Below are positions 7,152 to 60,000 of a DNA stretch of 64,000 nucleotides, piece by piece. How positions within the stretch are numbered: the stretch's first letter is position 1; every line of letters starts with the position of its first letter. Source of the DNA: Candidatus Aenigmatarchaeota archaeon (GTDB taxonomy: Archaea > Aenigmatarchaeota > Aenigmatarchaeia > GW2011-AR5); contig JACPDL010000003.1 of assembly GCA_016184005.1 (NCBI GenBank), forward strand, positions 380,974 to 444,973. The letters run 5' to 3'. The translations under genes and the position numbers were made by a program. The notes beneath the pieces are model-generated. The model saw only the letters and a list, made by a program, of their open reading frames with translations, made no database searches and was not told where the DNA came from.

Positions 7152-7544
7152 CTACTTTTGAGTAGGTTTCTCTTCCACTATGACTGCGTTAATAACACCA
7201 TCTTGACCCGGCCGCGACGTGACGCGTGCCTTGCCGAGTTCTGTCTGTATTATTGCCCCTTTTGTTATTATGTTTCTCCTAACGAACTGCGCGTCGGCCT
7301 TGTTTTCCACGACGCTGAGTATCTTTGCCTTCTGCGCCTTGCCGCCGGCAAGCACGTTTGCTATGTTTGAAGAAAGCAGCATGAATTTGCTGTTGCCCCC
7401 GCGCGATCTCAGGATCTTTACTTTTACTGTGCCTATGTGGGCTGGCAGGAAGTCTCTTCCGCGCTGATGCCTCTTTTTCTTGCTTGCACGCTTAAGCAGA
7501 CCGCCCGTTATCTTCCTCTTCGACCTTAGATGCCATTGGGCCAT
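7152..7544 (-). CDS. rps8e: 30S ribosomal protein S8e.
   Basis: 130 aa. It is basic, with an N-terminus (MAQWHLRSKRKITGG...KKKRHQRG) typical of S8e. It ends with a TAG stop. Confidence 0.85.
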   Translation of the reverse strand: MAQWHLRSKRKITGGLLKRASKKKRHQRGRDFLPAHIGTVKVKILRSRGGNSKFMLLSSNIANVLAGGKAQKAKILSVVENKADAQFVRRNIITKGAIIQTELGKARVTSRPGQDGVINAVIVEEKPTQK

Positions 7545-8995: not shown

Positions 8996-9036
8996 TTGTT
9001 AAGCTTTTTATCTGATGTAGTTAGTTAAAATTAATT

Positions 9037-9250
9037 GGGCCTGTAGCTCAGAGCAAATCCCTTTTCTTGGAAGAAAATGTCTTTGCATGTCCCAAAAGAA
9101 CGTGCAGGGATATTACAAGAAGATTTGGGATTGCGAGCAACCTGGTAGTTGCTTTTGATGCAACAGCAAGCACTCGCCTCTATTTCTAGTTGAAAAAGAC
9201 TGGAAAGGGCAATAAGCGAGGAGTCGCGGGTTCGAATCCCGTCGGGCCCA
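9037..9250 (+). tRNA. tRNA, probably Lys (anticodon CUU), interrupted by three introns. Exons are about 9037-9051, 9141-9148, 9169-9181 and 9213-9250.
   Basis: The acceptor stem GGGCCTG/CGGGCCC and T arm GCGGG-TTCGAAT-CCCGT are seen directly. Joining the four exons gives a canonical 74-nt tRNA: GGGCCUG UA GCUC AGCCUGGUA GAGC A CUCGC CUCUUAA GCGAG GAGUC GCGGG UUCGAAU CCCGU CGGGCCC A. Intron 1 (9052-9140) has a perfect BHB central helix GCTC/GAGC. Intron 3 (9182-9212) has the central helix GCCT/GGGC plus a 9-bp distal helix, which places the 5' cut after 9181 and gives anticodon CUU. If the junction is shifted, CAU or CUA become possible. The intron 2 motif is weak. Confidence 0.7.
9054..9110 (+). 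repeat. 57-nt two-hairpin element (copy A), nested inside tRNA-Lys intron 1.
   Basis: The sequence is caaatccc-TTTTCTT-gg-AAGAAAA-...-stem-cccaaaagaac-stem'. It is about 85% identical to copies at 9685-9741 (+) and 43591-43651 (-). Stem positions differ in compensating ways, while the loop cccaaaagaac is conserved. Confidence 0.6.
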
Positions 9251-9255
9251 TACTT

Positions 9256-9687
9256 TCAATCTTCGCATATCCCGCACTTTGTCGGTGACTGTGAGCAGGA
9301 AGTCTTGTATTGCTCGCAGCACTGCTCGAGTGTCGTGCCGAGGTTTTCGTTGCCTGAGCAGAGTTCGCACAAGCCGTCGCATTTCACGTCCTCGGATGTT
9401 GCGCAGCACAGCTTGTAGAGGCATGTGAACTTGCCGATATCAGGATTATTGAGGTATTTGCATGCCGAGTAGAAATCATTGAAGTCTTTCTGGTACGTGA
9501 CCCTCCAGTCGCATTGCTGCTTCTTGTAAGCGTCGCATTTGCTGAAGAATATCTCGTTGGCTTTTGCTGCCGTCATGCTGCCGCTGGACTGCGAAAGAAA
9601 GAATGCTGAAAGAATAATGAGGACAAGTACAAGAACCACGACTAAAACTATCATGCGCATCGGCAGTTCAAGACCTTTCATAAACAA
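9256..9687 (-). CDS. Small Cys-rich membrane protein (P1), paralogous to the 31362..31712 gene.
   Basis: The likely start is the internal MKGLELP (about 9681). It has an N-terminal TM helix followed by an extracellular Cys-rich domain. The motif DFNDFYSACKYL matches NYQKFYSSCKYVL in its paralog, and the N-termini align (MKGLELP versus MKGIDLP). It ends with a TGA stop. Confidence 0.5.
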   Translation of the reverse strand: MFMKGLELPMRMIVLVVVLVLVLIILSAFFLSQSSGSMTAAKANEIFFSKCDAYKKQQCDWRVTYQKDFNDFYSACKYLNNPDIGKFTCLYKLCCATSEDVKCDGLCELCSGNENLGTTLEQCCEQYKTSCSQSPTKCGICED

Positions 9688-9741
9688 ATCCCTTTTCTTG
9701 TAAGAAAAGGTCTTTGTAAACCCTAAAAGAACTTACAAAGA
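9685..9741 (+). repeat. 57-nt two-hairpin element (copy B).
   Basis: Intergenic, abutting the start of the 9256..9687 gene. Same architecture as copy A in the tRNA intron. Confidence 0.55.
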
Positions 9742-9763
9742 CTTTTTATTTTATGATTCCTTA

Positions 9764-12700
9764 CTAAATACCTAATCGATCGAGTATAGCGTTTCTCTTG
9801 GCCCAGATGACTACGACGGCCGCGATGATTATTGCGATGACCAACGCAGCGAGTAGAGGGCTGTCACCTTCTGTTTTTCCCGGCGTGGTTAATACTGGTT
9901 CTTGGGCGTCTGCCAGCGATTTGCCCACTCTGAACAATCTTGCATCTGACGTGGCGCTGGCATCCCTGCTGTCTCTTGCAAATACAAAATATTCCTGCAG
10001 TCCGCTGCTGATAGTTGAGTATGTGCATGTAAACTCGCTGCCGCTGCCGAGCAGCCTGCACAATACGTTCCTGCATTCTATGTCGGGGCAAACGAATGCA
10101 TCGCTTATTGCATCACCGTTTGGATCTGTTAATTCTGTATAGAACCTAACGCTCTGACCTTCCTCCATTTCAGCAGGTTCATTTCTCACGCTTCGTATCT
10201 GGGGAGGGCGGTTGGCTATGTCGCTTATTATTGTCGTAAAGAGAGCGGATTTCTTTTGGCTCGTTTTCTGGCTTTCTATCGAAATGTTAAGCGTGTTCAC
10301 ATCTCCGGGCTTTCTTTCGATCGGCGTGACCTTGAGTATGATCCCTGCGCTTCCATTCGGCAGCAACTCTACGGTGTTTTTTGCAGCATTATCAATCATT
10401 ATTGCCGCGTTACCTGACTCAATGCGGAATGTGAACGTATCGGTTTCATCCCCGGTGTTGCGCAATATTCCTGAGTAATCAACTGCAGTGCCGGGGTTTG
10501 CTGTTCCGCTGGCGCGTATCGGGTCGAATTGCATAACTGTTTTGAATACACTCTCTCCTGTAAGAGGGTCCTTTATATATCCCGGAGCTGTGCATTCGCC
10601 CCATGTGCATGAAGAAGTGCAGCGCTGTATGCAGGTGACTACGCTGCCGTCTTTCTCTATTTCCTGTGTCTGTGTCTCGGCGTCACTGCATTGTGCTTCA
10701 CATTGGTCTTTCACACATGAAAATGTCATTTGCTGCTGCTGGCACGTGCATGATGCAGTGCATAAGCCGGTGCTGGGCCTTGAGCCGTATTTCTTGCCGC
10801 TGCACTCAAAGCCTGTCTGTGTGCATTGTTCGCCTCTGTACGCAGGATCGCATGTTTCTGTACGGTCAAGCATCCCGTCGCCGCAGCCCGGAACGCGCGC
10901 GGAAATATATTTGGCTTTCGGCTCAATAGCGATGCACGCCGGACTGTCAAAAACAAACCCTGTCACGTTATGCGCCCCGCCTTTCGTCGGGCACTTGAAT
11001 CCCGTCACGCCCTGCTGGCTTCCTATCTTTGTGCAGCTTTCTCCGTCTATGCTGCAGCCTATGCAATTAGCGTCCCTGCTGGCAGTGACGCTGCATATGA
11101 CGCTGTTGCTTATTATTTCTGCGCGCACGCTGGAAACATAAATGTCTTTTGAATAGACGTCAAAGAATCCCGGCTCTGTCTCGTCATGAACCTCTGAAGA
11201 GCAGTCGGATTGCAGCGAGCCGACTATCCTGCACTGGAACTGCCATCTTCCTTCCGCACTTGCATTGCTGCGCACTGCGAAGTTGCGCTGTTCTCCTGTT
11301 TTTATCGGAACGCACGCTCCCCTTGCTTTTGTGATCGCCTGCTCGGGGTTTGTGAAGTCGCATTCAGCATAACCATAGTAATCGATGTTGCCCGCGTTCT
11401 TTGTCTGCACAACTGCGTCTATGAAAGTTCCAAGCTCAACGCTTCGGGAAATTGTCACATTCTCTATCTGCAACGCACCGGAAAGGGATTTCCTGCAGTA
11501 ATTATTGAACATGCCGCTTGCAAGGTTCTTTGTTATCGTGAGCTGCCTTCTTGCTTCTGTCGTATTCTTTTTCCCTGGAAAATCTACGACAGCGTCAAGA
11601 TAATTCCCATACTTCGTGAGGTTCCTTATTATAGTTCCCAATGCGTCTGCGCAGGCGAGAAACTGCCCGCGTTCTTCAGCAGTCGAGGCAATTCTTATCC
11701 TTTCGTCAAGCACGTCCTTGCCTTTCTCGAAGTTTATCCTTGATTCAGTTATGTTCTCCCGCGTTTGTACAATGCCAGGCAGGTTTACAAACGGGCAGGA
11801 AAAGCTGTAGTTTGCAGATCTGATAAAGCCGGATGCCGTTTGCGCTGCAAGATAGTACACGCCTTTTGTGTCGACGCATCTTGTCTGGCAGGATGTTTGC
11901 CTGATATCACCGCATATGCAGGGTTTGTCGACGCCGCAGTCTCTTGTTTCAAAACCCTGGGTGCAGTCGCTTACTGTAGCGTTACGCGAGCAGACGTAGT
12001 AGCCTGTGAATGGCTGTGCGAGGGTTGCGTTGAAGTCCACGCCATAATCTATTTCTATTTCGCATCTTTTGTTGGGTCCTGTGCAGCGGAACGGAGACGA
12101 AGGGCAGTCGCTGCTGCACGCCGTTTCCTCGCCTATTTGGCAAACGTTGTCGCCGCACAGCGTTATTGTGTGCGTTATGAAAAATGGTATGTCGGCTGTC
12201 TGGGATCTCACCGACAAGACTACTGGGTTCGCGCCCTCGCTTGCAGTAAGGTTGGGCACTACCGTGAGCGTGACTGTTGACGTCTGGTCCGCATCAACAA
12301 CCACTGTCGGATCGCTTAATGACGCCTTCCAGCCGAACGGCGTCAACGCTGAAAGCACGAAAAGCGTCGGCGGGAAGCCGATAATATCCTTGTTCTTTAT
12401 GACTATCTCAAATATCTGCGTTCTTCCAGGAGGGCCTGTAGACATTAATGGCGTTACAGAAACATCAGGGAAGTTTCCGGGAAGTATCTCGTACTGGGCG
12501 CTTGCAATGCCGATTACCCTGAATCTCGGCTCGAACAAGCCTACGCTGATATTGAACAGCCCCGTTGTGTTCTGCACAAGGAATGTTGCCGTTGTGCCGT
12601 TGTTGAGCCTGATTGTTTGCGTGACAAAAGTCAGGTTAACATTCGGCGTCACGACCATGTTGAACTTTCTTGTTTCTCCTCCACGCAATGCTACCTGCGA

Positions 12701-13231
12701 AGGCACAACGATCCTCCAGCCCGGCGGCCCGATTACGCTTGTTGTGAAGGTGAGATCAAAGCTGTTTGGGTTCCTTGTAGTCACTTCGTATGTTTTTTCT
12801 TCCGGCGCAGGAACGCTGATCTTTGCCGGCGTAATGTTTATCTCGATGTTCCTTTTCAGGAATGTAGCAAAAAGAAGTATGACCGTTGGTTTTGTCTTCT
12901 GGTTTGTCTTGCAGTTCTGGTTGACATTGCACTGCTTTGTCATTGCTCCGCCTACGCCTTCCTCGCATGTGTTCTGGCAGCTCACCGGCGTGCCGTCAGG
13001 GCAGACCGCAGTCGTGAGCCCTGTAGGCTTACAGTTCAGGAAACTTGTTTCTGTCCTGCCGGAAGCGTCTATGCACGTTTGTGTGTCGCATATCTCGCTG
13101 GTGCCGCGGCATCCTGTGCCCGGGAAGCAGGCTCCCTGTGCAAATCCCAGGGCGGTGAAAACGCTGAGTGAAAGCGCAAGCATGATGAATGCTGCAAATA
13201 TAATATTTGTTTTGTTTTTTTCTTTATTCAT
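9764..13231 (-). CDS. Large Cys-rich surface protein (B1) with a signal peptide and a C-terminal TM anchor.
   Basis: 1155 aa. The N-terminus is MNKEKNKTNIIFAAFIMLALSLSVFTALGFAQG. The C-terminus (LLAALVIAIIIAAVVVIWAKRNA) is a TM anchor. Many Cys and N-x-S/T sequons are present. A ~230-aa domain (C-x-G-x-DKPC-x-CG...SC...C-x-D...YYL...F-x-CP) is shared with the 31709..36463 protein. It ends TAG followed by TAA. Confidence 0.6.
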   Translation of the reverse strand: MNKEKNKTNIIFAAFIMLALSLSVFTALGFAQGACFPGTGCRGTSEICDTQTCIDASGRTETSFLNCKPTGLTTAVCPDGTPVSCQNTCEEGVGGAMTKQCNVNQNCKTNQKTKPTVILLFATFLKRNIEINITPAKISVPAPEEKTYEVTTRNPNSFDLTFTTSVIGPPGWRIVVPSQVALRGGETRKFNMVVTPNVNLTFVTQTIRLNNGTTATFLVQNTTGLFNISVGLFEPRFRVIGIASAQYEILPGNFPDVSVTPLMSTGPPGRTQIFEIVIKNKDIIGFPPTLFVLSALTPFGWKASLSDPTVVVDADQTSTVTLTVVPNLTASEGANPVVLSVRSQTADIPFFITHTITLCGDNVCQIGEETACSSDCPSSPFRCTGPNKRCEIEIDYGVDFNATLAQPFTGYYVCSRNATVSDCTQGFETRDCGVDKPCICGDIRQTSCQTRCVDTKGVYYLAAQTASGFIRSANYSFSCPFVNLPGIVQTRENITESRINFEKGKDVLDERIRIASTAEERGQFLACADALGTIIRNLTKYGNYLDAVVDFPGKKNTTEARRQLTITKNLASGMFNNYCRKSLSGALQIENVTISRSVELGTFIDAVVQTKNAGNIDYYGYAECDFTNPEQAITKARGACVPIKTGEQRNFAVRSNASAEGRWQFQCRIVGSLQSDCSSEVHDETEPGFFDVYSKDIYVSSVRAEIISNSVICSVTASRDANCIGCSIDGESCTKIGSQQGVTGFKCPTKGGAHNVTGFVFDSPACIAIEPKAKYISARVPGCGDGMLDRTETCDPAYRGEQCTQTGFECSGKKYGSRPSTGLCTASCTCQQQQMTFSCVKDQCEAQCSDAETQTQEIEKDGSVVTCIQRCTSSCTWGECTAPGYIKDPLTGESVFKTVMQFDPIRASGTANPGTAVDYSGILRNTGDETDTFTFRIESGNAAIMIDNAAKNTVELLPNGSAGIILKVTPIERKPGDVNTLNISIESQKTSQKKSALFTTIISDIANRPPQIRSVRNEPAEMEEGQSVRFYTELTDPNGDAISDAFVCPDIECRNVLCRLLGSGSEFTCTYSTISSGLQEYFVFARDSRDASATSDARLFRVGKSLADAQEPVLTTPGKTEGDSPLLAALVIAIIIAAVVVIWAKRNAILDRLGI

Positions 13232-36769: not shown

Positions 36770-37112
36770 AAGGAGAAAACCTAGGTTTCCTGCAGAGAAC
36801 CTAAGTTCTCTGAGGTCTCAACTCGAGGAAAGCAAAGCTTTCCTGAGTCTTCAGAAACCTTTGGTTTCTGCAAGAAGAGCGAAGCTCTTTGCAGATCTCC
36901 TTTCTAATCCTCATTCCTAATCAAGAATATTATTTTTCTCGCTCAGAAAACAAAGTTTTCTGGCGTCTCAAAGAGCATGGCTCTTTGCAGATTTCCCAAG
37001 GATTTTCTTTTCTCTAAAGGAAGAGGGGTTATCTGCAGAAAGCAAAGCTTTCTGAGATGTCAGAATTGCTTTGCAATTCTGCACATAGGGGAGAAAACGC
37101 AGTTTCTCCCTA
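36770..37112. repeat. Tandem array of about ten different perfect hairpins (6-9-bp AG-rich stems, 3-6-nt loops) filling the aspS-downstream spacer.
   Basis: The hairpins read directly are AAACCTAGGTTT, CAGAGAAC-CTAA-GTTCTCTG, AGGAAAGC-AAA-GCTTTCCT, CAGAAACC-TTT-GGTTTCTG, AAGAGC-GAA-GCTCTT, CAGAAAAC-AAA-GTTTTCTG, CAAAGAGC-ATG-GCTCTTTG, CAGAAAGC-AAA-GCTTTCTG, CAGAATTGC-TTT-GCAATTCTG and GGGAGAAA-ACGCAG-TTTCTCCC. Confidence 0.7.
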
Positions 37113-43276: not shown

Positions 43277-43561
43277 ATGGTGCGAAAATCTTACGGAAAG
43301 ATGAGAAAATCAAGGAACAGGCTGTCAGGCAAGAAAGCAAGCGGCATAGGGTCTTACATAAGAAAGTTCTCTCCTGGCGATGCAGTACATGTGGATTTCC
43401 TGCCAAGCTCAAAGCTCCCGCACACGCGTTTCCAGGGAGCAACAGGAAAGATAATCGAGAAAAGAGGCAGGAGCTACATGGTTCAGATCACAGACCATGA
43501 TGCGACGAAGACTCTTTTCCTGAGGCCAGAGCATCTCAAGCCGCAAAAAAATAAAAACTGA
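43277..43561 (+). CDS. rpl21e: 50S ribosomal protein L21e.
   Basis: 94 aa. The sequence MVRKSYGKMRKSRNRLS...FSPGDAVHVDFLPS...RFQGATGKIIEKRGRSYMVQI is typical L21e. Confidence 0.85.
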   Translation: MVRKSYGKMRKSRNRLSGKKASGIGSYIRKFSPGDAVHVDFLPSSKLPHTRFQGATGKIIEKRGRSYMVQITDHDATKTLFLRPEHLKPQKNKN

Positions 43562-43590: not shown

Positions 43591-43651
43591 GAGGTCTTTG
43601 TTTTCTTTGGGACATACAAAGACCTTTCTTTTCTGAAAAGAAAGGGATTTG
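43591..43651 (-). repeat. 57-nt two-hairpin element (copy C), between rpl21e and rpoF.
   Basis: The reverse complement reads caaatccc-TTTCTTTT-cag-AAAAGAAA-gGTCTTTGT-atgtcccaaagaaa-ACAAAGACc. It has the same architecture as copies A and B, with compensating stem changes. Confidence 0.55.
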
Positions 43652-43984
43652 TTTATGGAACTGATCGAAGAAGAGGACATAACTGTGCCGGAAGCGAAAA
43701 GGATACTTGAGGAAAGGAAGGGAGAAAGGGATCTTGTTTACGAGCAGAAGATATGCCTGGAATACCTGGAAAAGGTGCCAAAGCTCACACAGGCTCAGCT
43801 GAAAAACATAATTGAAGATCTGGGCAAAATAGCAATCCTGAAGCCGCGATACATAGCCCTGATAATCAACATACTTCCTGACACAGATGAGGAAGTCGAG
43901 ATGCTTTTTTCCAAGGAAAGAACAAACCTGAAGAAAGAGGAAATCAAGCAGATTGTAGAGATCGTCAAGAAATACAAGAAATAA
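43649..43984 (+). CDS. rpoF: DNA-directed RNA polymerase subunit F (Rpo4).
   Basis: 111 aa with a TTG start. The pattern V-x-EA...YEQ...L-x-YL-x-K...ILP...IV-x-KY matches archaeal RpoF. The rpl21e-rpoF-DUF655 order is conserved in archaea. Confidence 0.7.
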   Translation: MFMELIEEEDITVPEAKRILEERKGERDLVYEQKICLEYLEKVPKLTQAQLKNIIEDLGKIAILKPRYIALIINILPDTDEEVEMLFSKERTNLKKEEIKQIVEIVKKYKK

Positions 43985-46170: not shown

Positions 46171-46327
46171 TGTCAAGGACCACCGTCTGAAGACGGTGGC
46201 TTGCTGAAATTTCTGAATCCTTGAGCACATGGTAAACCAAAGGTTTACCTGTGTCGCAAAGCCCAAAGCTTTGCAACAATTCGCATTCCCTGAACCACTG
46301 CTTAAAAACAATGGAATGCGAAGTATA
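46171..46327 (+). repeat. About 105-bp two-hairpin repeat element (copy 1) with a nested 51-bp two-hairpin insertion at 46228-46278, immediately upstream of the lysK start.
   Basis: The sequence TGTCAAGGACCACCGTCTGAAGACGGTGGC...CGCATTCCCTGAACCACTG-CTTAAAAACA-ATGGAATGCGAAGT matches copies at 53432-53539 and 55118-55225. The insert CATGGTAAACC-AAA-GGTTTACC...GCAAAGC-CCAA-AGCTTTGC is flanked by a CA duplication. Confidence 0.65.
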
Positions 46328-46331
46328 AATC

Positions 46332-47948
46332 ATGATGGACGCGCAGATAGAGTTCTACACATGGGCTGACAGGATAGCCGGGGAGATGCAAAAAAGAAAA
46401 GTCAAGAAGCAGGTAGTTCACGGGATGTGGACGCCTTCCGGTTATTTCCATATCGGAAATGCAAGAACTGAACTGCTCATACCGGGGCTTGTTTTCCAGG
46501 CACTGGAAGACGCCGGAACACACGCTAAATTCAATTTTTTCGTGGACGATGCAGACGATCTGGATGCAGTGCCCGCCGGACTGAATCTTAATGCTGAAGA
46601 TTTCAAGGAGCATCTTGGCAAGCCCATATACGAAGCGCCTTCTCCTGATTATAGCCATGAAACGTGGGCGGACTATTTCACCGCTGAAATAAAAGACGTG
46701 ATGCACGAATACGGATTGAAGCCAAAATGGCACTCTTCTTATGAAAATTACCACAAAGGGCTTTATGATGATTCAATAACAACCGCCCTGAACAGCGCAA
46801 GGAAGATAAGGGATATCTGGGTAAAGATAACAAGGTCTGACAAGCCTGAAAACTGGCTGCCCGTCATTGTGAAATGCGAAAACTGCGGCAGGTCAGGCAC
46901 AACAAATGCAACCGGCTGGGACGGCAAGCACCTGTCTTATTCGTGCACGCAAGACCGCGAATATGCCAAAGGCTGCAGGCATGAAGGGCAGGTTATGCCA
47001 AAGAAGGGCAATGTAAAACTGCCATGGAGGCTGCACTGGCCGGCGACATGGAACATATTCAAAACGACATTTGAATCGGCCGGCAAAGATCATTTTGCCG
47101 CCAGCGGATCGGTAGACACAGGAAAGGTTTTTTCGGAAGAGATCTTCAAGTATGCCCCGCCTCTTCTCGTAGGCGGGGAATTCGTACAGATAAAAGGGAA
47201 AAAAATATCCGGATCAAAAGGAAATGCAATATCGCTGAAGCAGTGGCTGGAATTTGCAGAGCCTGAACTGCTGCGGTTCATGATGATTTCCTACCAGCCG
47301 CAGACAGTCATTGAATTTGACCTGGAATCAAACAAGCTTTTCCTGCTTGCCGACCGCTATGACGAGGCAGAAAGCGTTTATTTCCGTGAAAAGTCTCTAA
47401 ATGAAAAGAGGGACAACCAGCTGAAAAGGGAATACACACTTTCTCAGACAGGGAAGCCCGCCAAGATGCCGCAAATCAGCTATTCAATCGCTTCCATGAT
47501 TTCCCAGGTATACGCAGGAAGAAGCACGGAAGAGATAATAAATCTACTGGAGTCAATGGGTGCCATAAAGAACCCTGGCAAAAAAGACGCTGAAAAAATA
47601 ATTCACAGGCTGAAACTGGCAAAAACATGGGTTGAAAAATACGCTCCTGAGGAAATGAGAATCAATGTCAGGGAAACAGCAAGCAAGGAATTTGTTTCCT
47701 CTTTGAATGAAAACGAAAAGAAAGCGCTGGATCAGCTGGCAGGCGAACTTGACGCATACAAGAAAGAAGGGGAACTGCAGTCGCGCATATATGAAATTGC
47801 CAGGGAAAACAACGTCGAGCCCAAGAGGCTCTTTACCATCTGCTACCAGCTTCTCATCGGCCGTGACTCGGGCCCGCGTCTCGGGCCTTTTATCATGACA
47901 ATAGGAAAAGAAAAAGTTAAAGGGCTTTTTGGCCGGGCAATAGATTAA
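46332..47948 (+). CDS. lysK: Class I lysyl-tRNA synthetase.
   Basis: 538 aa. The HIGN motif is PSGYFHIGNARTELLIPG. The KMSKS variant is KISGSKGN. A zinc-binding Cys cluster is present (CENCGRSG...CTQD...C). The architecture is archaeal LysRS-I. Confidence 0.85.
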   Translation: MMDAQIEFYTWADRIAGEMQKRKVKKQVVHGMWTPSGYFHIGNARTELLIPGLVFQALEDAGTHAKFNFFVDDADDLDAVPAGLNLNAEDFKEHLGKPIYEAPSPDYSHETWADYFTAEIKDVMHEYGLKPKWHSSYENYHKGLYDDSITTALNSARKIRDIWVKITRSDKPENWLPVIVKCENCGRSGTTNATGWDGKHLSYSCTQDREYAKGCRHEGQVMPKKGNVKLPWRLHWPATWNIFKTTFESAGKDHFAASGSVDTGKVFSEEIFKYAPPLLVGGEFVQIKGKKISGSKGNAISLKQWLEFAEPELLRFMMISYQPQTVIEFDLESNKLFLLADRYDEAESVYFREKSLNEKRDNQLKREYTLSQTGKPAKMPQISYSIASMISQVYAGRSTEEIINLLESMGAIKNPGKKDAEKIIHRLKLAKTWVEKYAPEEMRINVRETASKEFVSSLNENEKKALDQLAGELDAYKKEGELQSRIYEIARENNVEPKRLFTICYQLLIGRDSGPRLGPFIMTIGKEKVKGLFGRAID

Positions 47949-53285: not shown

Positions 53286-53431
53286 CCATCTCAAACTATA
53301 ATACTATGGTTTTGAATCATAATGGATCGTCTTTAGCAGTTTATCTTTTGCATCATTTGGCAAAGTAGCTATTTCGCCGCTACTCTTATTTTCTCTTCTA
53401 TGAAATGTTACTTGGAAGTTTTTCAAGAATA

Positions 53432-53539
53432 TGTCAAGGACCACCGTCTAAAGACGGTGGCATGCTGAAATTTATGAATCCTTGAGCAATTCGCATTCCC
53501 TGAACCACTGTTTAAAAACAGTGGAATGCGAAGTTTCAA
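53432..53539 (+). repeat. About 105-bp two-hairpin repeat element (copy 2), intergenic.
   Basis: Identical to copy 3 over about 100 nt. Hairpins are CCACCGTCT-AA-AGACGGTGG and CGCATTCC[ctgaa]CCACTG-tttaaaaa-CAGTGGAATGCG. Flanked by TCAA on both sides. Confidence 0.65.
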
Positions 53540-53861: not shown

Positions 53862-53873
53862 ATAGTCACCAAA

Positions 53874-54113
53874 TGCTCTCGGCGGGATTGCTGCAAAGAG
53901 CGAAGCTGTTTGAGCCCTCGATGAGCTACGCTCAACTCGAAGAAGCCCAAAGGCCTTCTTGAGTTTACAGAAAGTTTCACTTTCTGATAAATCGAAGGTG
54001 AACCCAGGGGTTCAAATCTTATGCTCTCGGCGGGATTGCTTCAGAAACCAAAGGTTTCTGAGCTCTCGGCGAGCTGCGCTCAGCCGCAGATGAACCCAGG
54101 GGTTCAAATCTTA
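53874..54113 (-). repeat. Tandem partial duplications of the tRNA-Glu 3' end, interspersed with mini-hairpins.
   Basis: The 17-nt tRNA 3' terminus (reverse complement AATCCCGCCGAGAGCAT) recurs at 53874-53890 and 54022-54038, in addition to the real tRNA at 54113-54129. A 40-nt unit (tgaacccaggggttcaaatcttatgctctcggcgggatt) occurs twice. Between the copies lie diverged 45-nt repeats and the hairpins AGAAACC-AAA-GGTTTCT, CAGAAAG-TTTCA-CTTTCTG and GAAGCCC-AAA-GGCCTTC. Confidence 0.6.
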
Positions 54114-54237
54114 TGCTCTCGGCGGGATTTGAACCCGCGTCCGCGGCGATCTCCAGTTTTTCCCCGAGGGCTTTTGCGCCTCAGCGGAAAAGGGCTCTGA
54201 GAGGCCACTATCCTTGACCGGGCTAGACTACGAGAGC
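54114..54237 (-). tRNA. tRNA-Glu (anticodon CUC) with a 49-nt canonical 37/38 intron (54149-54197).
   Basis: The acceptor stem is GCTCTCG/CGAGAGC with discriminator A. The D arm is GTCT-AGCCCGGTCAA-GGAT. The anticodon stem is GTGGC/GCCGC and the loop is CUCUCA|C. The T arm is GCGGG-TTCAAAT-CCCGC. The intron's BHB central helix is CTCT/GGAG with bulges CA|G and AT|C. Confidence 0.75.
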
Positions 54238-54283: not shown

Positions 54284-54907
54284 ATGTTATTTTTATTAAT
54301 GAATAAACAATCGAAAGTTGTTCAAGAAGGTTATAACAAATTAGCAAAAAAATACAACAAGGAAAGGCATCGTTATGTTAATGATGCTCTCTTGAAACGA
54401 TTTGCAAAGCACCTAAAGAAAGGCTCAAAAGTTCTTGATTTAGGCTGTGGCGCTGGTATACCTATTGACAGGTTTCTAGTAAAGAATGGTTACAAAGTAA
54501 CTGGCATAGATTTCGCAAGAAATATGCTAAAAGCCGCGAAGAAAAATGTCCCCCGAGCCAAATACATTCAGATGGACATGACAAAGATGAAGTTTAAGCC
54601 TGACTCATTTGATGCTGCAGTCTCTTTCTATGCCATCATTCATGTTCCGAAAGAAAAGCATACAAAGTTATACAAAGATCTGCACAAAATCTTAAAGTCC
54701 GATGGAATTATTTTCGTGAACGCAAGCGGCCATAAAAAATGGGAAGGCTATGGAAATTTCATGGGCACTAGAATGTTCTGGAGCCATTATGCTCCTGCCA
54801 AGACATTAGGAATAATAAGAAAGTCTGGTTTCAAGATTCTATGGCGTAAAGTTCTGAAACTTGGTGGAGAAAAGCAGTTCTGGGTACTTGCTAGGAATAT
54901 GAAATAA
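54284..54907 (+). CDS. Class I SAM-dependent methyltransferase.
   Basis: 207 aa. The motif I is VLDLGCGAGIP. Methyltransf_11/25-like. Confidence 0.6.
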   Translation: MLFLLMNKQSKVVQEGYNKLAKKYNKERHRYVNDALLKRFAKHLKKGSKVLDLGCGAGIPIDRFLVKNGYKVTGIDFARNMLKAAKKNVPRAKYIQMDMTKMKFKPDSFDAAVSFYAIIHVPKEKHTKLYKDLHKILKSDGIIFVNASGHKKWEGYGNFMGTRMFWSHYAPAKTLGIIRKSGFKILWRKVLKLGGEKQFWVLARNMK

Positions 54908-55058: not shown

Positions 55059-55484
55059 ATGTATAAAATTTACCATTCCCAGAAGTTTGATAAAGAATTA
55101 GATAAATTTGGCAAAGATGTCAAGGACCACCGTCTAAAGACGGTGGCATGCTGAAATTTATGAATCCTTGAGCAATTCGCATTCCCTGAACCACTGTTTA
55201 AAAACAGTGGAATGCGAAGTTTCAAAGAGCGAGTCAATAAAATTGAAGATCAGCTAGTAAAGAATCCTAATGTTGGATCTCCTTTAGGAATTTCATGGTT
55301 AAGAGAAAAGAGATATGGTAAATATAGAATTTATTACATTATTTATGAAGACTTGAAATCTGTTTTTATGGTAGCTATTAGTGAGAAAAAAGATCAGCAG
55401 AAAGTTATCAATACAGTTAAAATTCTTTTAGAATACTTCAAAGAAGAAATAAAAGAATTAGTGGATAAGAATAAAATTACTTAA
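55059..55484 (+). pseudogene. RelE/ParE-family toxin gene split in frame by a 102-bp insertion of the 105-bp repeat element (55122-55223).
   Basis: The N-terminal piece MYKIYHSQKFDKELDKFGKDV (55059-55121) and the ORF 55212-55484 (..KERVNKIEDQLVKNPNVGSPLGISWLREKRYGKYRIYYIIYEDLKSVFMVAISEKKD) share one frame and together form a canonical RelE/ParE sequence. The insert carries an in-frame TGA. The flanks are TCAA/TCAA. No BHB fit is found at this junction. Confidence 0.55.
55118..55225 (+). repeat. About 105-bp two-hairpin repeat element (copy 3), inserted into the relE-like gene.
   Basis: Same sequence as copy 2. Confidence 0.65.
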
Positions 55485-57031: not shown

Positions 57032-60000
57032 TTAGTCTCCGAAGATTATCGGGCATGTTGTCGAATAGCTGTACAGCTCGTCCTCGTCTATATCAAGCCA
57101 GTATCCTGCTCCAGGATCCATGTGGGACGTGAAGTTTAATTCCGGCCACTTCTTATCAGCAGGGTTGAAAAGCTCCCAGTACGTGAGCAGAGAATCCCAC
57201 TTAGGATGGCCCAATGCCGTGTTCACCAATGTGCCTAAAGCGCATGTGGACTTCCTTCCGTCTCCGTCAGGGCCGTCGTACACAGGCGGCTCTATAGGCT
57301 CTTTGTCCTCATTGGCGTTTAATCCGTAGTAGCCTATTAGGTTCCATCCTTCTTTCAGCGCCTTGCTCGGCGGCGTCACTACAGGGCTGAACAGGCTGCC
57401 GCCTATCAGGAGCGTGTTATCATCATTCATCAATACCCAGTAGCCCCAGCCAGGCACCATGGTATGCAGCGTGTCCGTTGCATCGTCAGGCGTCCATACA
57501 AGCCACTGGCCTGCTACAGGATCATATGTGGATACGGATGTGACGTTCTCTTCTATGTCCTCAAACACCCTGTCCATCGAATCGTTCAACAATACCAACG
57601 GCGTGGATATCAGGTTCCATTTCTTGTTCAGCTGTATCTCGAACCCTCTTCCCTCAACCTTGAACTTCTCCTCGTCCACAGGTCCCTTGTTGCCCAATGC
57701 GTCCTGGCAGTAGAACTTCAGATTATGTTCAGATTCTTCTGTGAAGTGGAACTGGACAGGCGCCCTGTCTTCAATCACGCAGCAGAACCCGTCTTCCTTG
57801 TTGAATTCGCCGTATGCCCTGCTGCAATAGCCTTCTGTCGCGTCGTCGCCGTCCAGATCAACCTTGAAGCATGCGTTTGAATTGTCTACCGGATGCGGCT
57901 CGGGGTCGCTGCAGTCAAGCGTTATCGGCGTCATTGTCGTGACTTTCCAGCAGTCCAAGCTGTCCGGATCGGTTTCGTTGAAACATAGTCCGTTCACTTC
58001 CGGATAAAATATAAACTTGTAATCATTTGTTGTATTTGTATGATTTATAACGGACTTAGGCTTTTCAACCGTCTTGATAGGAACAGGCGGCGTGTCGTCG
58101 ACGAATGCGCACTGTCTCCGAGGCGTTTCGTTCTTCTCCACATTGTCAATGCTGTAGAACTCTATCAGGTGGCATGACTCTTCATTGATTGTGAACGGGT
58201 TTGTGTAGGTGTTCCACGCTGTCGTGCCGTTTGGCGCGTCCTCGCAGCCCAACAGGTCGTCGTTGGTCTCGTCATCGTCGTCTATGAAATTTTCGCCGTT
58301 GCAGTATGTGTCATCCACAGGCGTGCTCCTCCAGAACGTTGCATCCACGCCGGAATCATGAGGCCCGTAATCGTCGGTTGCGCTCAATGTAACGTCTGTT
58401 TTGATTGTTATCCATTCAATTCCGTCATCCGAGAAGAATGGCTTGCCGTATGTCTTCTCCGTCACTGGCGGCGTCTTGTCAACTAAAAATGTTTCAACAT
58501 CAGTCACTTCATTGCCCAAGGCATCGTGGCATGTTATTGTTAATTCGTGCTCCGATTCCTCAGGGAAGTTTATATCGAACGTTGGCGTCACGTCATTTTC
58601 TCCGCCCCTAGCACCATCATCATCCACAACCTCATAAGACCAGTCGCATGTCACATGATTGGAAGGATGCGGCTGTGGATCTTCCGCCTCGACATGTATC
58701 TTCGTCACGCCATCAATTATGCACTCGTCGCCTTCTTCTTCAGGCGGACATGTTCCTACCTGCGGGCCTACCACAGTCTTTGTTATCACAGGCGGCTGGG
58801 TATCTACTGCAAAGAACTCCAGGTCAGGCTTGTTTACATTGCCAAGCGCGTCCTCGCAGTAGTATTCAAGGTCGTGCATCGTATCTTCCTGGAAGTTGAA
58901 TTGTAGCCTTGGCCTGTCAACGCAGCAGTAGCCGTTATCCTGAATTTCTCCTTCAACATCTTCACAATACTCTTCTGTCAGGAACGGTTGTTGTGGGTCG
59001 TCAAACGAAACAAGGAAGCACACACTTTCGTGGTCGACAGGGTGAGGATCTTGGTCTTCACAGCTTAGGGTTATAGGTGTTTCCTGACTCACAAGCCAGT
59101 CGCATTGAGGCGCAAGCTGGCAGTTTGCAGGGCAACTGTCGCCGTCTTCAGTATTTCCGTCGTCACAGTCTTCGCCCACTTCAAGTTCTCCGTTTCCGCA
59201 AATATAAGCTGACTGTCCGCCAGTACCGCATGTTCCGGGCTCAATCTCGAAAGCAGTAATCAAATCCTTTTCAGCAAAACTCTGAGGCGTAGTTCTTACC
59301 CACATTACTTCCTTGAATCCGTCCGCTTCATTATTGAAAGTTACAGGGTCGCATTCCATATCCTCTTGTCTGTCGTCTTCACTAACAAACTGGTCTACAA
59401 GATCAAGGGTATCTTTATCAGCCCTGAATACCTTGCCTCCGCCATCGTTGCCCATGTATAGGTTTGCGCCGCCTATCGCCAGTCCGCTTAATGATGAAAG
59501 GTCTTCGTCCGTGTCTGTAGCATCGTATCCTGTAACAAGCGTGCCGTCAGGCCTGAAAACACCCAGATTCTTGTTTACATCGTCGCTGAACCACAGCTCG
59601 TCGTCTGCATCACTCTCTGGGTCATTCTCGTTGTAAGCCAGACCGTCTAGGAAACAATAACCAAGGAATGATCCTCCTGTAGCCGGGTTGATCAATGAGC
59701 TTGGAACGGTGAACACCAAAGCTACTGAATCGTCACCAAAGTCCCAGAAGTATATCGGCATTCCTTCTCCGCAATCGCCTGGGGCAGAACCACCAAATCC
59801 TCTCTGCGTACCAAACCAGATTCCATTTCTTTTGGCATCAAACGCCATTGCGTTCGGGTATGACGATACTCCAGTATCAAATGTATCCTGAAGGGCTCCT
59901 GTTACAGGATGAACCTTGTATATGTTCTTGTCGACGCACCTGTTGTAGTAAAGCGATGCGCCATCGAACGCCAAGCCTATGCTGCAGAAGTTCGTGTAGC

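What the first reader, a model, noticed from the sequence alone, without database searches (positions are those of the whole stretch)
9037..9250. tRNA-Lys (CUU) assembled from four exons, with a mobile two-hairpin element nested inside its first intron
Both ends of a canonical tRNA are 214 nt apart. Joining 9037-9051, 9141-9148, 9169-9181 and 9213-9250 gives a perfect 74-nt cloverleaf. Intron 1 (89 nt, D loop 15/16) and intron 3 (31 nt, anticodon loop 35/36) both show the 4-bp central helix and 3-nt bulge geometry (GCTC/GAGC and GCCT/GGGC). Intron 2 (20 nt, 22/23) is weaker. Three-intron tRNAs are known only in a few archaeal lineages. Intron 1 additionally hosts a 57-nt element that has free-standing copies at 9685-9741 and 43591-43651, suggesting that intronic space is colonised by a mobile RNA-structure element.
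Basis: partly seen in the sequence, partly recalled or inferred. Interest (0 to 1): 0.65.

Follow-up and report, generated by a model that had tools for sequence, protein, structure and literature searches.

The report
Three-intron tRNA-Lys; intron family with mRNA-leader copies
A lysine tRNA gene of a tiny DPANN archaeon really is split into four pieces, and its first intron belongs to a widespread conserved RNA element that fills many tRNA introns and also sits, upside-down, directly in front of ribosomal-protein genes.

Summary
Joining 9037-9051, 9141-9148, 9169-9181 and 9213-9250 gives a 74-nt tRNA-Lys(CUU). The window comes from a Candidatus Aenigmatarchaeota (DPANN) genome. All three junctions are confirmed by relatives with identical exons. 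A strain-level relative (L124) lacks exactly the 31-nt intron 3, and L089 lacks introns 2 and 3. Introns 1 and 3 have clean bulge-helix-bulge geometry. Intron 2 has only a degenerate one.

The "nested mobile element" reading needs revision. The repeat starts 2 nt after the 5' splice site and supplies one strand of the splice-site helix, so it is the core of the intron. An exact-pattern scan found 111 copies in public metagenomes. About 60 are tRNA introns in D loops, anticodon loops and T loops of many tRNAs. About 25-30 are inverted copies that end 1-3 nt before the start codon of mostly translation-related genes (eight ribosomal proteins, RpoF, an S1-domain protein). Both free copies in the window are of this kind.

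The element shows a three-strand covariation (85 of 100 copies) that would fit an RNA triple helix.

Verdict: a new three-intron tRNA in a new lineage, belonging to a transposed-intron family. The link to mRNA leaders was not found in the searched literature. The function of the core is unknown.

The parts
9005..9011 (+). Candidate TATA box (TTTTTAT) about 29 nt upstream of tRNA position 1
   Evidence: Read from the sequence. Inference only, not tested. The block is identical in strain-level relative L124.
9037..9051 (+). Exon 1, tRNA positions 1-15 (acceptor 5' strand, U8 A9, D-stem 5' strand GCTC, A14 G15)
   Evidence: Identical in L005, L007, L008, L009, L089 and L124.
9052..9140 (+). Intron 1, 89 nt, between positions 15 and 16. 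Central helix 9046-9049 (GCTC) with 9135-9138 (GAGC). 3-nt bulges AG|A and AA|C. Adjoining helix 9053-9061 (GCAAATCCC) with 9127-9134 (GGGATTGC).
   Evidence: Geometry and shuffle test (P=0.0004). The precursor fold shows the same helices. Introns at the same position occur in L005, L009, L089 and L124. 84 of 89 nt identical to L124, against 74 of 74 for the exons.
9054..9106 (+). Conserved core of the intron family: CAAATCCC, hairpin TTTTCTT/AAGAAAA, GTCTTTG, CCCAAAAGAAC
   Evidence: 111 copies matching the pattern exactly in public metagenomes.
9141..9148 (+). Exon 2, CCTGGTAG, positions 16-22 (rest of the D loop plus G22)
   Evidence: Contiguous with exon 3 sequence in L005, L008, L009 and L089 (CCTGGTAGAG...).
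9149..9168 (+). Intron 2, 20 nt, between positions 22 and 23 (inside the D-stem 3' strand). Degenerate bulge-helix-bulge: TGGT/ACAG 3 of 4, inner helix TGC/GCA.
   Evidence: P=0.02. Identical in L124, absent from L089 which has identical exons. Another intron at 22/23, with a 4-bp central helix by hand inspection, is in tRNA-Asn of L144 (sequence).
9169..9181 (+). Exon 3, positions 23-35 (D-stem 3' strand, A26, anticodon-stem 5' strand, C32 U33 C34 U35)
9182..9212 (+). Intron 3, 31 nt, between anticodon positions 35 and 36. Central helix GCCT/GGGC, bulges CT|A and AA|T, inner helix TTTCTAGT/ACTGGAAA.
   Evidence: 4 of 4, 9-bp helix, P<5e-5. It is a clean and unambiguous 31-nt presence/absence difference against L124, whose flanks are 95% identical. 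No relative of this intron was found in any fetched locus.
9213..9250 (+). Exon 4, positions 36-73 (U36, A37 A38, anticodon-stem 3' strand, variable loop, T arm, acceptor 3' strand, discriminator A)
9682..9742 (-). Leader copy of the element. Read on the minus strand it ends ...AAAAGGGATTTG-TTT-ATG, with the ATG at 9681-9679 starting a 141-aa pilin-like ORF (9681..9256). It lies 22 nt after the stop of the upstream 1155-aa gene.
43591..43654 (+). Leader copy of the element between L21e (stop at 43561) and RpoF. It ends GGGATTTG (43644-43651), then TTT, then ATG at 43655.
   Evidence: The downstream protein matches Pfam RNA_pol_Rpb4. An RpoF that is 75% identical in L175 carries the same leader.

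Best explanation
This is a functional tRNA-Lys(CUU) gene of a Candidatus Aenigmatarchaeota (DPANN) archaeon, interrupted by three protein-spliced introns at positions 15/16, 22/23 and 35/36.

Mechanism. The precursor is transcribed as one RNA. At each intron, four exon bases that lie 2 nt upstream of the 5' cut pair with four intron bases that lie 2 nt upstream of the 3' cut. This forms a bulge-helix-bulge or relaxed helix-bulge-helix motif. The archaeal splicing endonuclease (EndA) cuts it and an RtcB-type ligase joins the exons. The anatomy is shown here; the enzymes and the splicing itself are inferred.

Intron 1 is not an intron with a passenger. It is one member of a large family of homologous introns. 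Their conserved core of about 50 nt begins 1-2 nt after the 5' splice site, and its first 8 nt make the helix next to the splice sites. In this clade the family occupies D loops (15/16, 16/17), the canonical anticodon-loop site (37/38) and T loops (59/60) of many different tRNAs. It is gained or lost between close relatives. This is the 'intron transposition' pattern known from Thermoproteales.

The same core also exists as its reverse complement at the end of a cassette of about 85 nt. In the mRNA this cassette folds into a hairpin of about 15 bp containing a tandem G-A, and the foot of the hairpin is 0-2 nt from the AUG. It precedes mostly translation-related genes. Both free copies in the window are of this type.

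My working view, which is inferred, is that the mRNA-strand hairpin is the selected RNA structure. It may be stabilised by a U.A-U triple helix and may act in processing, stability or translation control of the mRNA. On this view the intron copies are inverted derivatives that persist because splicing removes them. The function of the core remains unproven.
For: tRNA:
- ARAGORN cloverleaf on the spliced sequence.
- Rfam tRNA model, 33 bits.
- Syntenic interrupted tRNA-Lys genes next to the same S8e/LSm/L37e cluster in four Aenigmatarchaeota genomes, with different intron sets.

Junctions:
- L124 has 74 of 74 exon identity, the same introns 1 and 2, and a clean absence of 9182-9212.
- L089 has identical exons, lacks introns 2 and 3, and has extra anticodon-loop and T-loop introns.
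- Exons are invariant while intron 1 differs at 5 of 89 positions and flanks at 5%, which indicates selection on the exons.
- Bulge-helix-bulge statistics.

Family:
- 104 metagenome stretches and 111 copies.
- Context counts: 27 T-loop, 24 D-loop, 8 anticodon-loop, 24 leader.
- 22 copies pass a strict bulge-helix-bulge test, and their joined exons recreate normal loops such as TTCAAAT.
- In-silico splicing gives tRNAs of several isotypes, though the automated calls are noisy.
- Rfam confirms two anticodon-loop cases.

Leaders:
- ORFs start at the abutting ATG.
- Pfam identifies RpoF, L21e, S3, S3Ae, S17, S2, L18 and an S1 domain.
- RNAalifold predicts a hairpin whose closing pair covaries: AU 12, GC 3, UA 2.
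- The mRNA strand folds about 5 kcal/mol better in 23 of 24 leaders.

Three-strand covariation: 85 of 100 copies, against a permutation mean of 36.5 and maximum of 51, with at least 10 sequence states, in all contexts.
Against: - No RNA data exist: neither splicing nor the mature tRNA has been observed.
- Intron 2 has only a degenerate motif (central helix 3 of 4, inner helix 3 bp, P=0.02), and it sits next to an 8-nt exon. How it is recognised is unclear.
- The endonuclease of this lineage was not examined.
- Only 64 kb of the genome is available, so a second, contiguous tRNA-Lys(CUU) cannot be excluded.
- Mobility is inferred from distribution only. No mechanism, donor site or target duplication was found.
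- The collection scan required exact matches to most of the core, so conservation of those bases is partly imposed by the search.
- The three-strand covariation could partly reflect subfamilies spread by copying or gene conversion rather than a structural constraint.
Confidence: 0.8

Rival explanations
1. An ordinary D-loop intron was secondarily colonised by an independent 57-nt mobile element (a miniature transposon or similar), and this element also has neutral free-standing copies in intergenic DNA.
For: Three copies in 64 kb with 83% identity and compensatory changes in the second hairpin. Intron copies have terminal inverted repeats, CAAATCCC...GGGATT(T)G. Some copies carry extra hairpins inserted inside the element, so nesting does occur within the family (L104, L105, L123, L143, L177).
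Against: The shared segment starts 2 nt after the 5' splice site and provides the 5' strand of the splice-site helix, in the window and in the other tRNA-intron copies examined. No target-site duplication and no transposase were seen. The free copies are not randomly placed or oriented: 24 or more abut a start codon at 1-3 nt, always in the same inverted orientation. The homologous 15/16 intron of the more distant L009 looks, by eye, like a diverged member of the same family (AAGCTCC...GGAGTTT-GAGCAA), so the core may be old at this site.
Confidence: 0.1
2. The locus is a decaying pseudogene. The insertions, especially the 20-nt one inside the D stem, have inactivated the tRNA.
For: ARAGORN does not find the gene. 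Intron 2 lacks a strict bulge-helix-bulge motif.
Against: All 74 exon positions are identical in the window, L124 and L089, while the introns and flanks differ and the intron sets differ. The spliced product has no mismatch in any stem. Intron 2 is kept identical in L124. An intron at 22/23 with a good central helix by hand inspection exists in tRNA-Asn of L144 (sequence). Multi-intron tRNAs are common in the fetched relatives.
Confidence: 0.05
3. Antisense regulation. Excised tRNA introns carrying the core (possibly circular and stable, as archaeal tRNA introns can be) pair with the complementary leaders right up to the AUG. This would couple tRNA production to translation or stability of ribosomal-protein, RpoF and initiation-factor mRNAs.
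For: Intron and leader copies are exact reverse complements over about 50 nt ending 1-3 nt from the AUG. The predicted duplexes of window intron 1 with the two window leaders are -58 and -70 kcal/mol, against -23 to -25 for shuffled leaders. The genes behind the leaders are mostly translation-related. The core, including the three-strand relation, is kept in introns as well as in leaders, which is unexpected for junk. Precedent: free tRNA introns of yeast lower the levels of mRNAs with long complementary stretches (abstract of bioRxiv 10.1101/2025.11.19.689297).
Against: Complementarity follows automatically from an inverted copy. No expression data exist. Similarity among intron copies can equally be explained by recent copying. 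Leaders within one genome differ in sequence state from each other.
Confidence: 0.15
4. The element acts at the DNA level, for example as a palindromic binding site for a regulator shared by tRNA and ribosomal-protein genes, or as a triplex-forming (H-DNA) mirror repeat.
For: It has an inverted repeat plus a purine mirror repeat. It is associated with two classes of translation-apparatus genes.
Against: The hairpin loop varies from about 2 to 10 nt while the stems are kept, which a dimeric DNA-binding site would not tolerate. The closing pair of the leader hairpin covaries. The strand asymmetry of folding energy follows the transcribed strand. The position inside tRNAs is fixed relative to the RNA splice sites.
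Confidence: 0.05

Closest known systems
Multiple-intron tRNA genes of Thermoproteales (Sugahara et al. 2008), and disrupted tRNA genes reported for several DPANN lineages (Kaneta et al. 2018, PMC5829648)
   Same: [quoted passage not shown] The reviews give three as the maximum known (PMC4033280).
   Different: The lineage is Aenigmatarchaeota, for which I found no report of tRNA introns. One intron lies inside the anticodon (35/36) and one inside the D stem (22/23), leaving an 8-nt exon. One intron is polymorphic between strains whose flanks are 95% identical.
[quoted passage not shown] 2010, as summarised in PMC4090602 and PMC4033280)
   Same: Near-identical intron sequences at different positions in tRNAs of different identity, implying intron gain by copying. 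The mechanism is unknown in both cases.
   Different: Here the family has a much more strongly conserved, structured core of about 50 nt that is found across many metagenomes. The core also occurs outside tRNA genes: inverted and fused to the start codons of protein genes, and in spacers directly after tRNA 3' ends. The summaries I read do not mention such extragenic copies for Thermoproteales. The primary paper was not available to me.
Triple-helix RNA stability elements (ENE of PAN RNA; the 3' end of MALAT1). This comparison rests on my own knowledge.
   Same: In the mRNA orientation the order is U-rich strand, linker, U-rich strand, loop, A-rich strand. The first U-rich strand is the parallel complement of the A-rich strand, allowing U.A-U triples with one C+.G-C. 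All three strands covary.
   Different: This is an archaeal element of about 60 nt located just 5' of a start codon, not a 3'-end element of a nuclear RNA. The triplex is inferred from covariation only. In the intron orientation the third strand is purine-rich.
Free tRNA introns as regulators of complementary mRNAs in yeast (fitRNAs)
   Same: tRNA introns with long complementarity to mRNAs.
   Different: In yeast the effect is demonstrated. Here there is only the complementarity. In this case dozens of introns share one core, and the complementary sites form a conserved leader cassette.
Repetitive extragenic palindromes (REP/BIME) and archaeal miniature inverted-repeat elements. This comparison rests on my own knowledge.
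   Same: Short, structured, multi-copy elements located in transcribed spacers.
   Different: Strict position and orientation relative to start codons and splice sites. No target duplications. No associated transposase was seen.

Membership tests
Archaeal protein-spliced (bulge-helix-bulge) tRNA introns | Removing the intron restores a canonical cloverleaf with conserved tRNA bases | tested here: met
   (ARAGORN Lys-ctt; all stems perfect or G-U; G18 G19 and T54 T55 C56 present). (Rfam tRNA 33 bits).
Archaeal protein-spliced (bulge-helix-bulge) tRNA introns | A 4-bp central helix flanked by two 3-nt bulges that carry the cut sites, or the relaxed helix-bulge-helix form | tested here: met
   Introns 1 and 3: 4 of 4 central pairs, correct 3-nt bulges, inner helices of 4 (+4) and 9 bp. 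The outer exon-exon helix is absent, so this is the relaxed form.
Archaeal protein-spliced (bulge-helix-bulge) tRNA introns | The same motif for intron 2 (22/23) | tested here: inconclusive
   Central helix 3 of 4 with an internal G-A, inner helix 3 bp, shuffle P=0.02. The junction itself is proven by L089.
Archaeal protein-spliced (bulge-helix-bulge) tRNA introns | The genome encodes a splicing endonuclease with broad substrate range, and an RtcB ligase | not tested
   Not searched for in the window. The literature reports endonucleases carrying a DPANN-type extra loop in lineages with many disrupted tRNAs (PMC5829648).
Archaeal protein-spliced (bulge-helix-bulge) tRNA introns | Splicing observed in RNA | not testable with these tools
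   No transcriptome data are available.
Transposed tRNA intron family (Thermoproteales type) | Highly similar intron sequences at different positions in tRNAs of different identity | tested here: met
   the same core in D loops, anticodon loops and T loops of tRNAs called by automated, noisy in-silico splicing as Lys, Asp, Thr, Ala, Cys, Leu, Trp and others.
Transposed tRNA intron family (Thermoproteales type) | Presence/absence differences between close relatives | tested here: met
   The T-loop intron carrying the core is present in tRNA-Lys of L089 and absent from the window and L124, although the exons are identical. Intron 3 is present in the window and absent from L124.
Miniature inverted-repeat transposable element | Terminal inverted repeats plus target-site duplication, with a related autonomous element | tested here: not met
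   Intron copies have CAAATCCC/GGGATTTG ends, but no direct target duplication was seen by reading the flanks. Leader copies lack the second end. No transposase was seen.
Intron-encoded C/D box small RNA (as in archaeal tRNA-Trp) | C box RUGAUGA and D box CUGA with a guide sequence | tested here: not met
   No such boxes in intron 1 (sequence). No Rfam match at E<=1 or E<=10 locally.
Group I or group II self-splicing intron | Catalytic core recognisable by Rfam; length of hundreds of nt | tested here: not met
   The introns are 89, 20 and 31 nt. No Rfam match.
Triple-helix RNA element (ENE/MALAT1-like) | Two U-rich strands and one A-rich strand in the right order and polarity, covarying | tested here: met
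   The third strand is the parallel complement over the whole stem in 85 of 100 copies, with at least 10 sequence states; permutation maximum 51.
Triple-helix RNA element (ENE/MALAT1-like) | Triple helix demonstrated physically, and an effect on RNA stability | not testable with these tools
   Needs structure probing, melting experiments or crystallography.

The most novel reading that the evidence does not exclude
The conserved core is a functional RNA module that exists in two complementary forms. The first form is a triple-helix-stabilised hairpin placed at the very foot of the start codon of ribosomal-protein, RpoF and initiation-factor mRNAs. The second is its antisense, carried by dozens of tRNA introns. 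Spliced-out tRNA introns would then act as a pool of antisense RNAs that tunes expression of the translation apparatus. The same family would also show how archaeal tRNA introns are gained, because intron and non-intron copies of one element coexist and one gain or loss is caught between strains.
Probability: 0.15. Interest if true: 0.9.

Novelty: new variant of a known kind. Interest (0 to 1): 0.72.

Why it matters
- Three-intron tRNAs mark the known upper limit of tRNA gene disruption and were described mainly in Thermoproteales. This case extends them to Aenigmatarchaeota. It also helps explain why standard tools under-count tRNAs in DPANN genomes: ARAGORN found no tRNA at all in this window.
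- The mechanism of archaeal tRNA intron gain is an open question. This family offers unusually good material. The core is sharply defined, it occupies many tRNA positions, close relatives with identical exons differ in intron content, and there are copies outside tRNA genes.
- A conserved hairpin with apparent three-strand covariation, fused to the start codons of translation genes, would be a new archaeal cis-regulatory or RNA-stability element if confirmed.
- Its exact antisense relationship to tRNA introns makes a regulatory link between tRNA processing and ribosome synthesis directly testable.

Tried and rejected
- ARAGORN on the raw window found no tRNA. Rfam at gathering threshold found only tRNA-Glu at 54114-54237.
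- A loose scan of the 234-nt precursor for bulge-helix-bulge motifs gave 71 hits against 42 expected by chance, so it is not informative by itself. Only the strict filter and the tests at fixed junctions were used.
- I tried alternative junctions for intron 2 by hand. None gives a better D arm or a strict motif (and the sequence).
- Shifting intron 3 by one base would give anticodon CAT. The L124 sequence excludes this.
- An nhmmer profile of the element found no further copies in the window. It found none in the 80 loci fetched via the S8e protein, which include other Aenigmatarchaeota genera. The exact core is therefore restricted to a sub-clade.
- The scan of viral contigs gave 0 hits.
- Rfam on 20 related loci recovered only the anticodon-loop cases, because its filters fail on D-loop and T-loop insertions.
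- Automated 'splice then ARAGORN' was noisy. For example, it miscalled the window gene as Ser when allowed long introns. I used it only to show the range of isotypes.
- BLAST of introns 2 and 3 against all fetched loci found no relatives except intron 2 in L124.
- Six literature searches found no description of this family.
- I considered and rejected C/D box RNA, group I or II intron, a DNA operator, and a classical miniature transposon (see the membership tests).
Full report
**1. What is at 9037-9250**

Joining 9037-9051, 9141-9148, 9169-9181 and 9213-9250 gives 74 nt. ARAGORN calls this tRNA-Lys(ctt). It has a 7-bp acceptor stem, the D arm GCTC/GAGC with loop AGCCTGGTA, the anticodon stem CTCGC/GCGAG, the loop CTCTTAA and the T arm GCGGG-TTCGAAT-CCCGT. 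The unconstrained minimum-free-energy fold is the cloverleaf.

ARAGORN finds no tRNA at all in the unspliced 64-kb window. The Rfam tRNA model misses the locus in a whole-window scan. In a local search it aligns 9037-9250 end to end at 33 bits (gathering score 29), with insertions of 116 and 35 nt.

**2. Organism and homologous loci**

The neighbouring genes are S8e (7152-7544, minus strand), an LSm protein, L37e and two small ORFs. The S8e protein is 75%, 72% and 66% identical to those of Candidatus Aenigmatarchaeota genomes assembled from metagenomes (L005, L007, L008). Two further close loci, L006 (74%) and L009 (65%), are labelled only "uncultured archaeon". Its exact sequence occurs in short Logan contigs from SRR12113425 and three sister runs.

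In L005, L007, L008 and L009 an interrupted tRNA-Lys lies in the same neighbourhood:
- L008 has a contiguous 5' half and one long anticodon-loop intron.
- L007 has a D-loop intron after G19 and an anticodon-loop intron.
- L005 and L009 have a 15/16 intron and an anticodon-loop intron, and read CCTGGTAGAG without interruption.
- L009 is the UUU isoacceptor.

**3. The three junctions are proven by relatives with identical exons**

L124 (Ga0209542_10048164) is a strain-level relative:
- 381 of 400 upstream bases are identical.
- All 74 exon bases are identical.
- Intron 1 is identical at 84 of 89 positions.
- Intron 2 is identical at 20 of 20 positions.
- Positions 9182-9212 are absent as one clean 31-nt gap, leaving ...GCACTCGCCTCTTAAGCGAGG... 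The gap cannot be shifted by even one base without changing the L124 sequence.

L089 (Ga0213870_1022927) has the same exons and a 15/16 intron. It reads CCTGGTAGAGCACTCGCCTCTTAAG without interruption, so introns 2 and 3 are absent. It then has a long intron after ...CTTAAG and a further intron in the T loop.

The contrast between invariant exons and variable introns and flanks argues for a functional gene.

**4. Splice motifs**

In the archaeal motif, four exon bases that lie 2 nt upstream of the 5' cut pair with four intron bases that lie 2 nt upstream of the 3' cut. Each cut lies in a 3-nt bulge. Results at the fixed junctions:
- Intron 1: GCTC/GAGC, bulges AG|A and AA|C, inner helix GCAA(A)TCCC/GGGATTGC. 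A shuffled intron does as well in 0.04% of trials.
- Intron 3: GCCT/GGGC, bulges CT|A and AA|T, inner helix of 9 bp. No shuffled intron did as well in 20,000 trials.
- Both lack the outer exon-exon helix, so they are the relaxed form. According to the literature this form needs an endonuclease with broad specificity, and such enzymes are reported in DPANN lineages rich in disrupted tRNAs (PMC5829648). I did not test this here.
- Intron 2: only TGGT/ACAG (U-G, G-A, G-C, U-A) plus a 3-bp inner helix, P=0.02.

Intron 2 is real as an insertion, because it is absent from L089. How it is recognised is open. By hand inspection, tRNA-Asn(GTT) of L144 has a 28-nt intron at the same 22/23 position with a 4-bp central helix (sequence). 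A loose motif scan of the whole precursor is dominated by chance hits and was not used.

**5. The "nested element" is the core of an intron family**

The window holds three copies: 9054-9106, 9685-9737 and 43591-43651, the last in reverse orientation.

An exact-pattern scan of public metagenome contigs (CAAATCCCTTT, 3-10 nt, AAGAAA, 1-2 nt, GTCTTTG) returned 104 stretches and 111 copies. The viral collection returned none.

Most copies lie inside tRNA genes, always in the tRNA sense and starting 1-2 nt after a 5' splice site:
- after ...GTAGCTCAG(T)(A) in D loops;
- after ...CTGCAG, ...CTTAAG or ...CTCAAG in anticodon loops, which appears to be the canonical 37/38 site;
- after ...GGTTC(A/G)AA in T loops (59/60).

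CAAATCCC pairs with GGGATT(T)G near the 3' end of the intron. The next four bases are complementary to the exon, for example TGAA for the T-loop TTCA and GAGC for the D-stem GCTC. Two bases later comes the 3' cut.

Twenty-two copies pass a strict test, and their joined exons restore normal loops such as GGTTCAAATCC. By left-flank motif I counted 27 T-loop, 24 D-loop, 8 anticodon-loop, 24 leader and 19 other copies. Rfam confirms two anticodon-loop cases. In-silico splicing followed by ARAGORN gave tRNAs of several isotypes, but that procedure is noisy.

Some tRNAs carry two copies. tRNA-Lys of L089 and tRNA-Asn of L144 each have one in the D loop and one in the T loop, and three introns in total.

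In the window, the shared segment begins 2 nt after the splice site and forms the splice-site helix. Intron 1 is therefore a family member, not a host with a passenger. The 15/16 intron of the more distant L009 looks, by eye, like a diverged member: AAGCTCC...GGAGTTT-GAGCAA.

**6. The free copies are inverted leaders fused to start codons**

In 24 or more copies the bases just before CAAATCCC are CAT plus 1-3 nt. On the other strand this reads ...AAGAAAGGGATTTG, 1-3 nt, ATG, and an ORF starts there.
- Confirmed by Pfam: RpoF/Rpb4 (the window gene at 43655), L21e, S3, S3Ae, S17, S2, L18 and an S1-domain protein that looks like aIF2-alpha.
- Judged by eye: L39e, S6e, EF-1beta, SufB, a beta-CASP nuclease and pilin-like proteins.

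The window copies lie between L21e and RpoF, and between a 1155-aa gene and a pilin-like gene. They begin 30 and 22 nt after the upstream stop codon and end 3 nt before the downstream ATG. An RpoF that is 75% identical in L175 has the same leader.

Aligned in gene orientation, the leaders share a TAATA box about 85 nt upstream of the ATG, then ...AAGGTCTT...GTTCTTTGGGGTTCACAAAGACCTTTCTT-loop-AAGAAAGGGATTTG.

RNAalifold on 17 leaders predicts one hairpin: N-CAAA-GA-CCUUUCUU ... AAGAAAGG-GA-UUUG-N'. The closing pair N:N' covaries (AU 12, GC 3, UA 2). The internal loop is a tandem G-A on the mRNA strand. The foot of the hairpin is 0-2 nt from the AUG.

Leader copies fold about 5 kcal/mol better on the mRNA strand (23 of 24), whereas D-loop and T-loop intron copies show no strand bias. 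The hairpin loop varies from about 2 to 10 nt, which argues for an RNA structure rather than a DNA-binding site.

Further contexts seen:
- copies directly after tRNA 3' ends or between tRNAs (L146, L171, L091, L168);
- copies upstream of a tRNA gene (L134, L156);
- a fragment of the tRNA 5' end, then the element, then the complete tRNA (L094, L142, L151).

**7. Covariation inside the core**

A diverged subfamily has CCAATCCC together with GGTCTTGG. One copy has TCCA with TGGA. In a T-loop intron of that subfamily the 3' partner is GATTGG. The first four bases therefore appear to covary with two alternative partners.

A more unusual relation involves the purine tract that follows CCC downstream (for example CCCAAAGAA). 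This tract is the parallel complement of the 5' strand of the first hairpin (CCCTTTCTT). Equivalently, it is the mirror image of the hairpin's 3' strand.
- The run lengths agree in 87 of 89 copies.
- The relation holds over the whole stem in 85 of 100 copies, against a permutation mean of 36.5 and a maximum of 51.
- It holds through at least ten sequence states: TTTCTT, TTTTCTT, TTTCTTT, TTTCTTTT, TTTTCTTT, TTTTCTTTT, TTCTTT, TTCTTTT, TTTCTTTC and TTTCTTC.
- It holds in every context: leaders 26 of 30, D loop 19 of 21, T loop 19 of 26, anticodon loop 7 of 7.

Watson-Crick pairing cannot produce a mirror relation. A triple helix can. On the mRNA strand, 5'-UUCUUU-3' runs parallel to 5'-AAGAAA-3', which is already paired with UUUCUU. 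That gives U.A-U triples and one C+.G-C triple, in the strand order known from the MALAT1 and ENE elements (my own knowledge). This is an inference. Subfamilies spread by copying or gene conversion could contribute to the pattern.

**8. How it most likely works**

Shown:
- the gene anatomy and the junctions;
- the motifs of introns 1 and 3;
- the intron family, its contexts, and the presence/absence differences between relatives;
- the leader hairpin and the three-strand relation.

Inferred:
- cutting by the splicing endonuclease and joining by an RtcB-type ligase;
- gain of introns by copying of the element. The introns survive because the element's own ends, plus four bases matching the target, create a splice motif;
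- a role for the leader form in mRNA processing, stability or translation.

The intron RNA is an exact antisense of the leaders up to the AUG. The predicted duplexes for the window are -58 and -70 kcal/mol, against about -24 for shuffled controls. An antisense link between tRNA splicing and expression of translation genes is therefore possible. It has a precedent in yeast free tRNA introns (bioRxiv 10.1101/2025.11.19.689297). Nothing here demonstrates it.

**9. Comparison with what is known, and novelty**

[quoted passage not shown] Increased tRNA disruption is reported for some DPANN lineages, with a remark that undetected disrupted tRNAs remain (PMC5829648).

I found no report on Aenigmatarchaeota tRNA introns, on this conserved core, or on intron-related copies at mRNA start codons. 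My searches cover open-access literature only.

The tRNA itself is a new member of a known kind. The family, with its leader copies and three-strand covariation, is a new variant of a known kind.

**10. Limits**
- There are no RNA data.
- Only 64 kb of the genome is available.
- The collection scan fixed most core bases, so their conservation is partly imposed by the search.
- Classification of contexts by flank motif is approximate.
- The endonuclease was not examined.

Noticed in passing
window 54114-54237 (-) and 53873-54130: The second tRNA of the window is tRNA-Glu(CTC) with a 49-nt anticodon-loop intron that lacks the conserved core. Its last 16 nt (AATCCCGCCGAGAGCA) recur twice more downstream, at about 54021 and 53873. 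Each copy is preceded by related 45-62-nt blocks. These could be leftovers of repeated integration or recombination at the tRNA 3' end.
   Followed up: partly
window 53428-53539, 55114-55225, 46171-46332: A repeat of about 112 nt (99% identical pair, plus a 93-95% third copy split into two blocks) contains the hairpin GGACCACCGTCT.AAGACGGTGGC. The pair brackets the tRNA-Glu and a methyltransferase-like gene (54284-54907). This is a different repeat family from the one studied.
   Followed up: no
L124 against window 9251-9300: Immediately 3' of the tRNA, the strain-level relative L124 has about 130 nt more than the window. There is therefore a second insertion or deletion difference next to the gene, in addition to intron 3.
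   Followed up: no
L089 (reverse strand 448-824): This tRNA-Lys(CTT) has exons identical to the window gene but a different set of three introns: 15/16 with the core, a long anticodon-loop intron, and 59/60 with a second copy of the core that carries an extra insertion of about 50 nt.
   Followed up: partly
L144 (reverse strand, about 580-900): tRNA-Asn(GTT) has three introns: D loop with the core, a 28-nt intron at 22/23 whose central helix AGGT/GCTT pairs at all four positions by hand inspection, and T loop with the core. A second tRNA follows directly.
   Followed up: partly
L094, L142, L151: A duplicated fragment of a tRNA 5' end (leader bases plus positions 1 to about 17) is followed by the element and then by the complete tRNA gene. 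This may be an intermediate of intron gain or loss, or of recombination. In L151 the complete tRNA (apparently Met, CAT) carries a diverged variant of the core in its anticodon loop (CAAGCCC...GGGCTTCG, a fully paired hairpin).
   Followed up: partly
L146, L171, L091, L168, L177: Copies of the element start 1-4 nt after the discriminator base of a tRNA, in 3' trailers or spacers between tRNAs, in the tRNA sense.
   Followed up: no
L081 (-), L165 (+), L134/L156: In the tRNA-sense orientation the conserved ATATTA at the far end of the element lies about 20-45 nt upstream of a downstream gene or tRNA. In L081 the sequence reads ATATTATACACAAGGAAAAGGAGGTGAGAGAATG. The box may act as a TATA box there.
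   Followed up: no
L104, L105, L110, L122, L123, L143, L177; L143 and L174: Some copies carry an extra hairpin of 40-60 nt inserted between GTCTTTG and CCCAAAGAA, and both motifs are kept. L143 and L174 have a tandem partial duplication of the first 20 nt of the element.
   Followed up: no
window 58059-62668: Three diverged repeats (67-77% identity) spaced about 2.0-2.7 kb apart. They look like paralogous coding sequence in a tandem gene family.
   Followed up: no
window 9764-13231 (-): A 1155-aa cysteine-rich ORF with an N-terminal hydrophobic segment and a C-terminal membrane anchor lies directly upstream of the leader copy at 9685. It is probably a surface protein.
   Followed up: no
window 36851-36963 (+): A weak Rfam match to a microRNA family (mir-2009, 26 bits against a gathering score of 90, E=0.17). 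This is almost certainly a chance hairpin.
   Followed up: no
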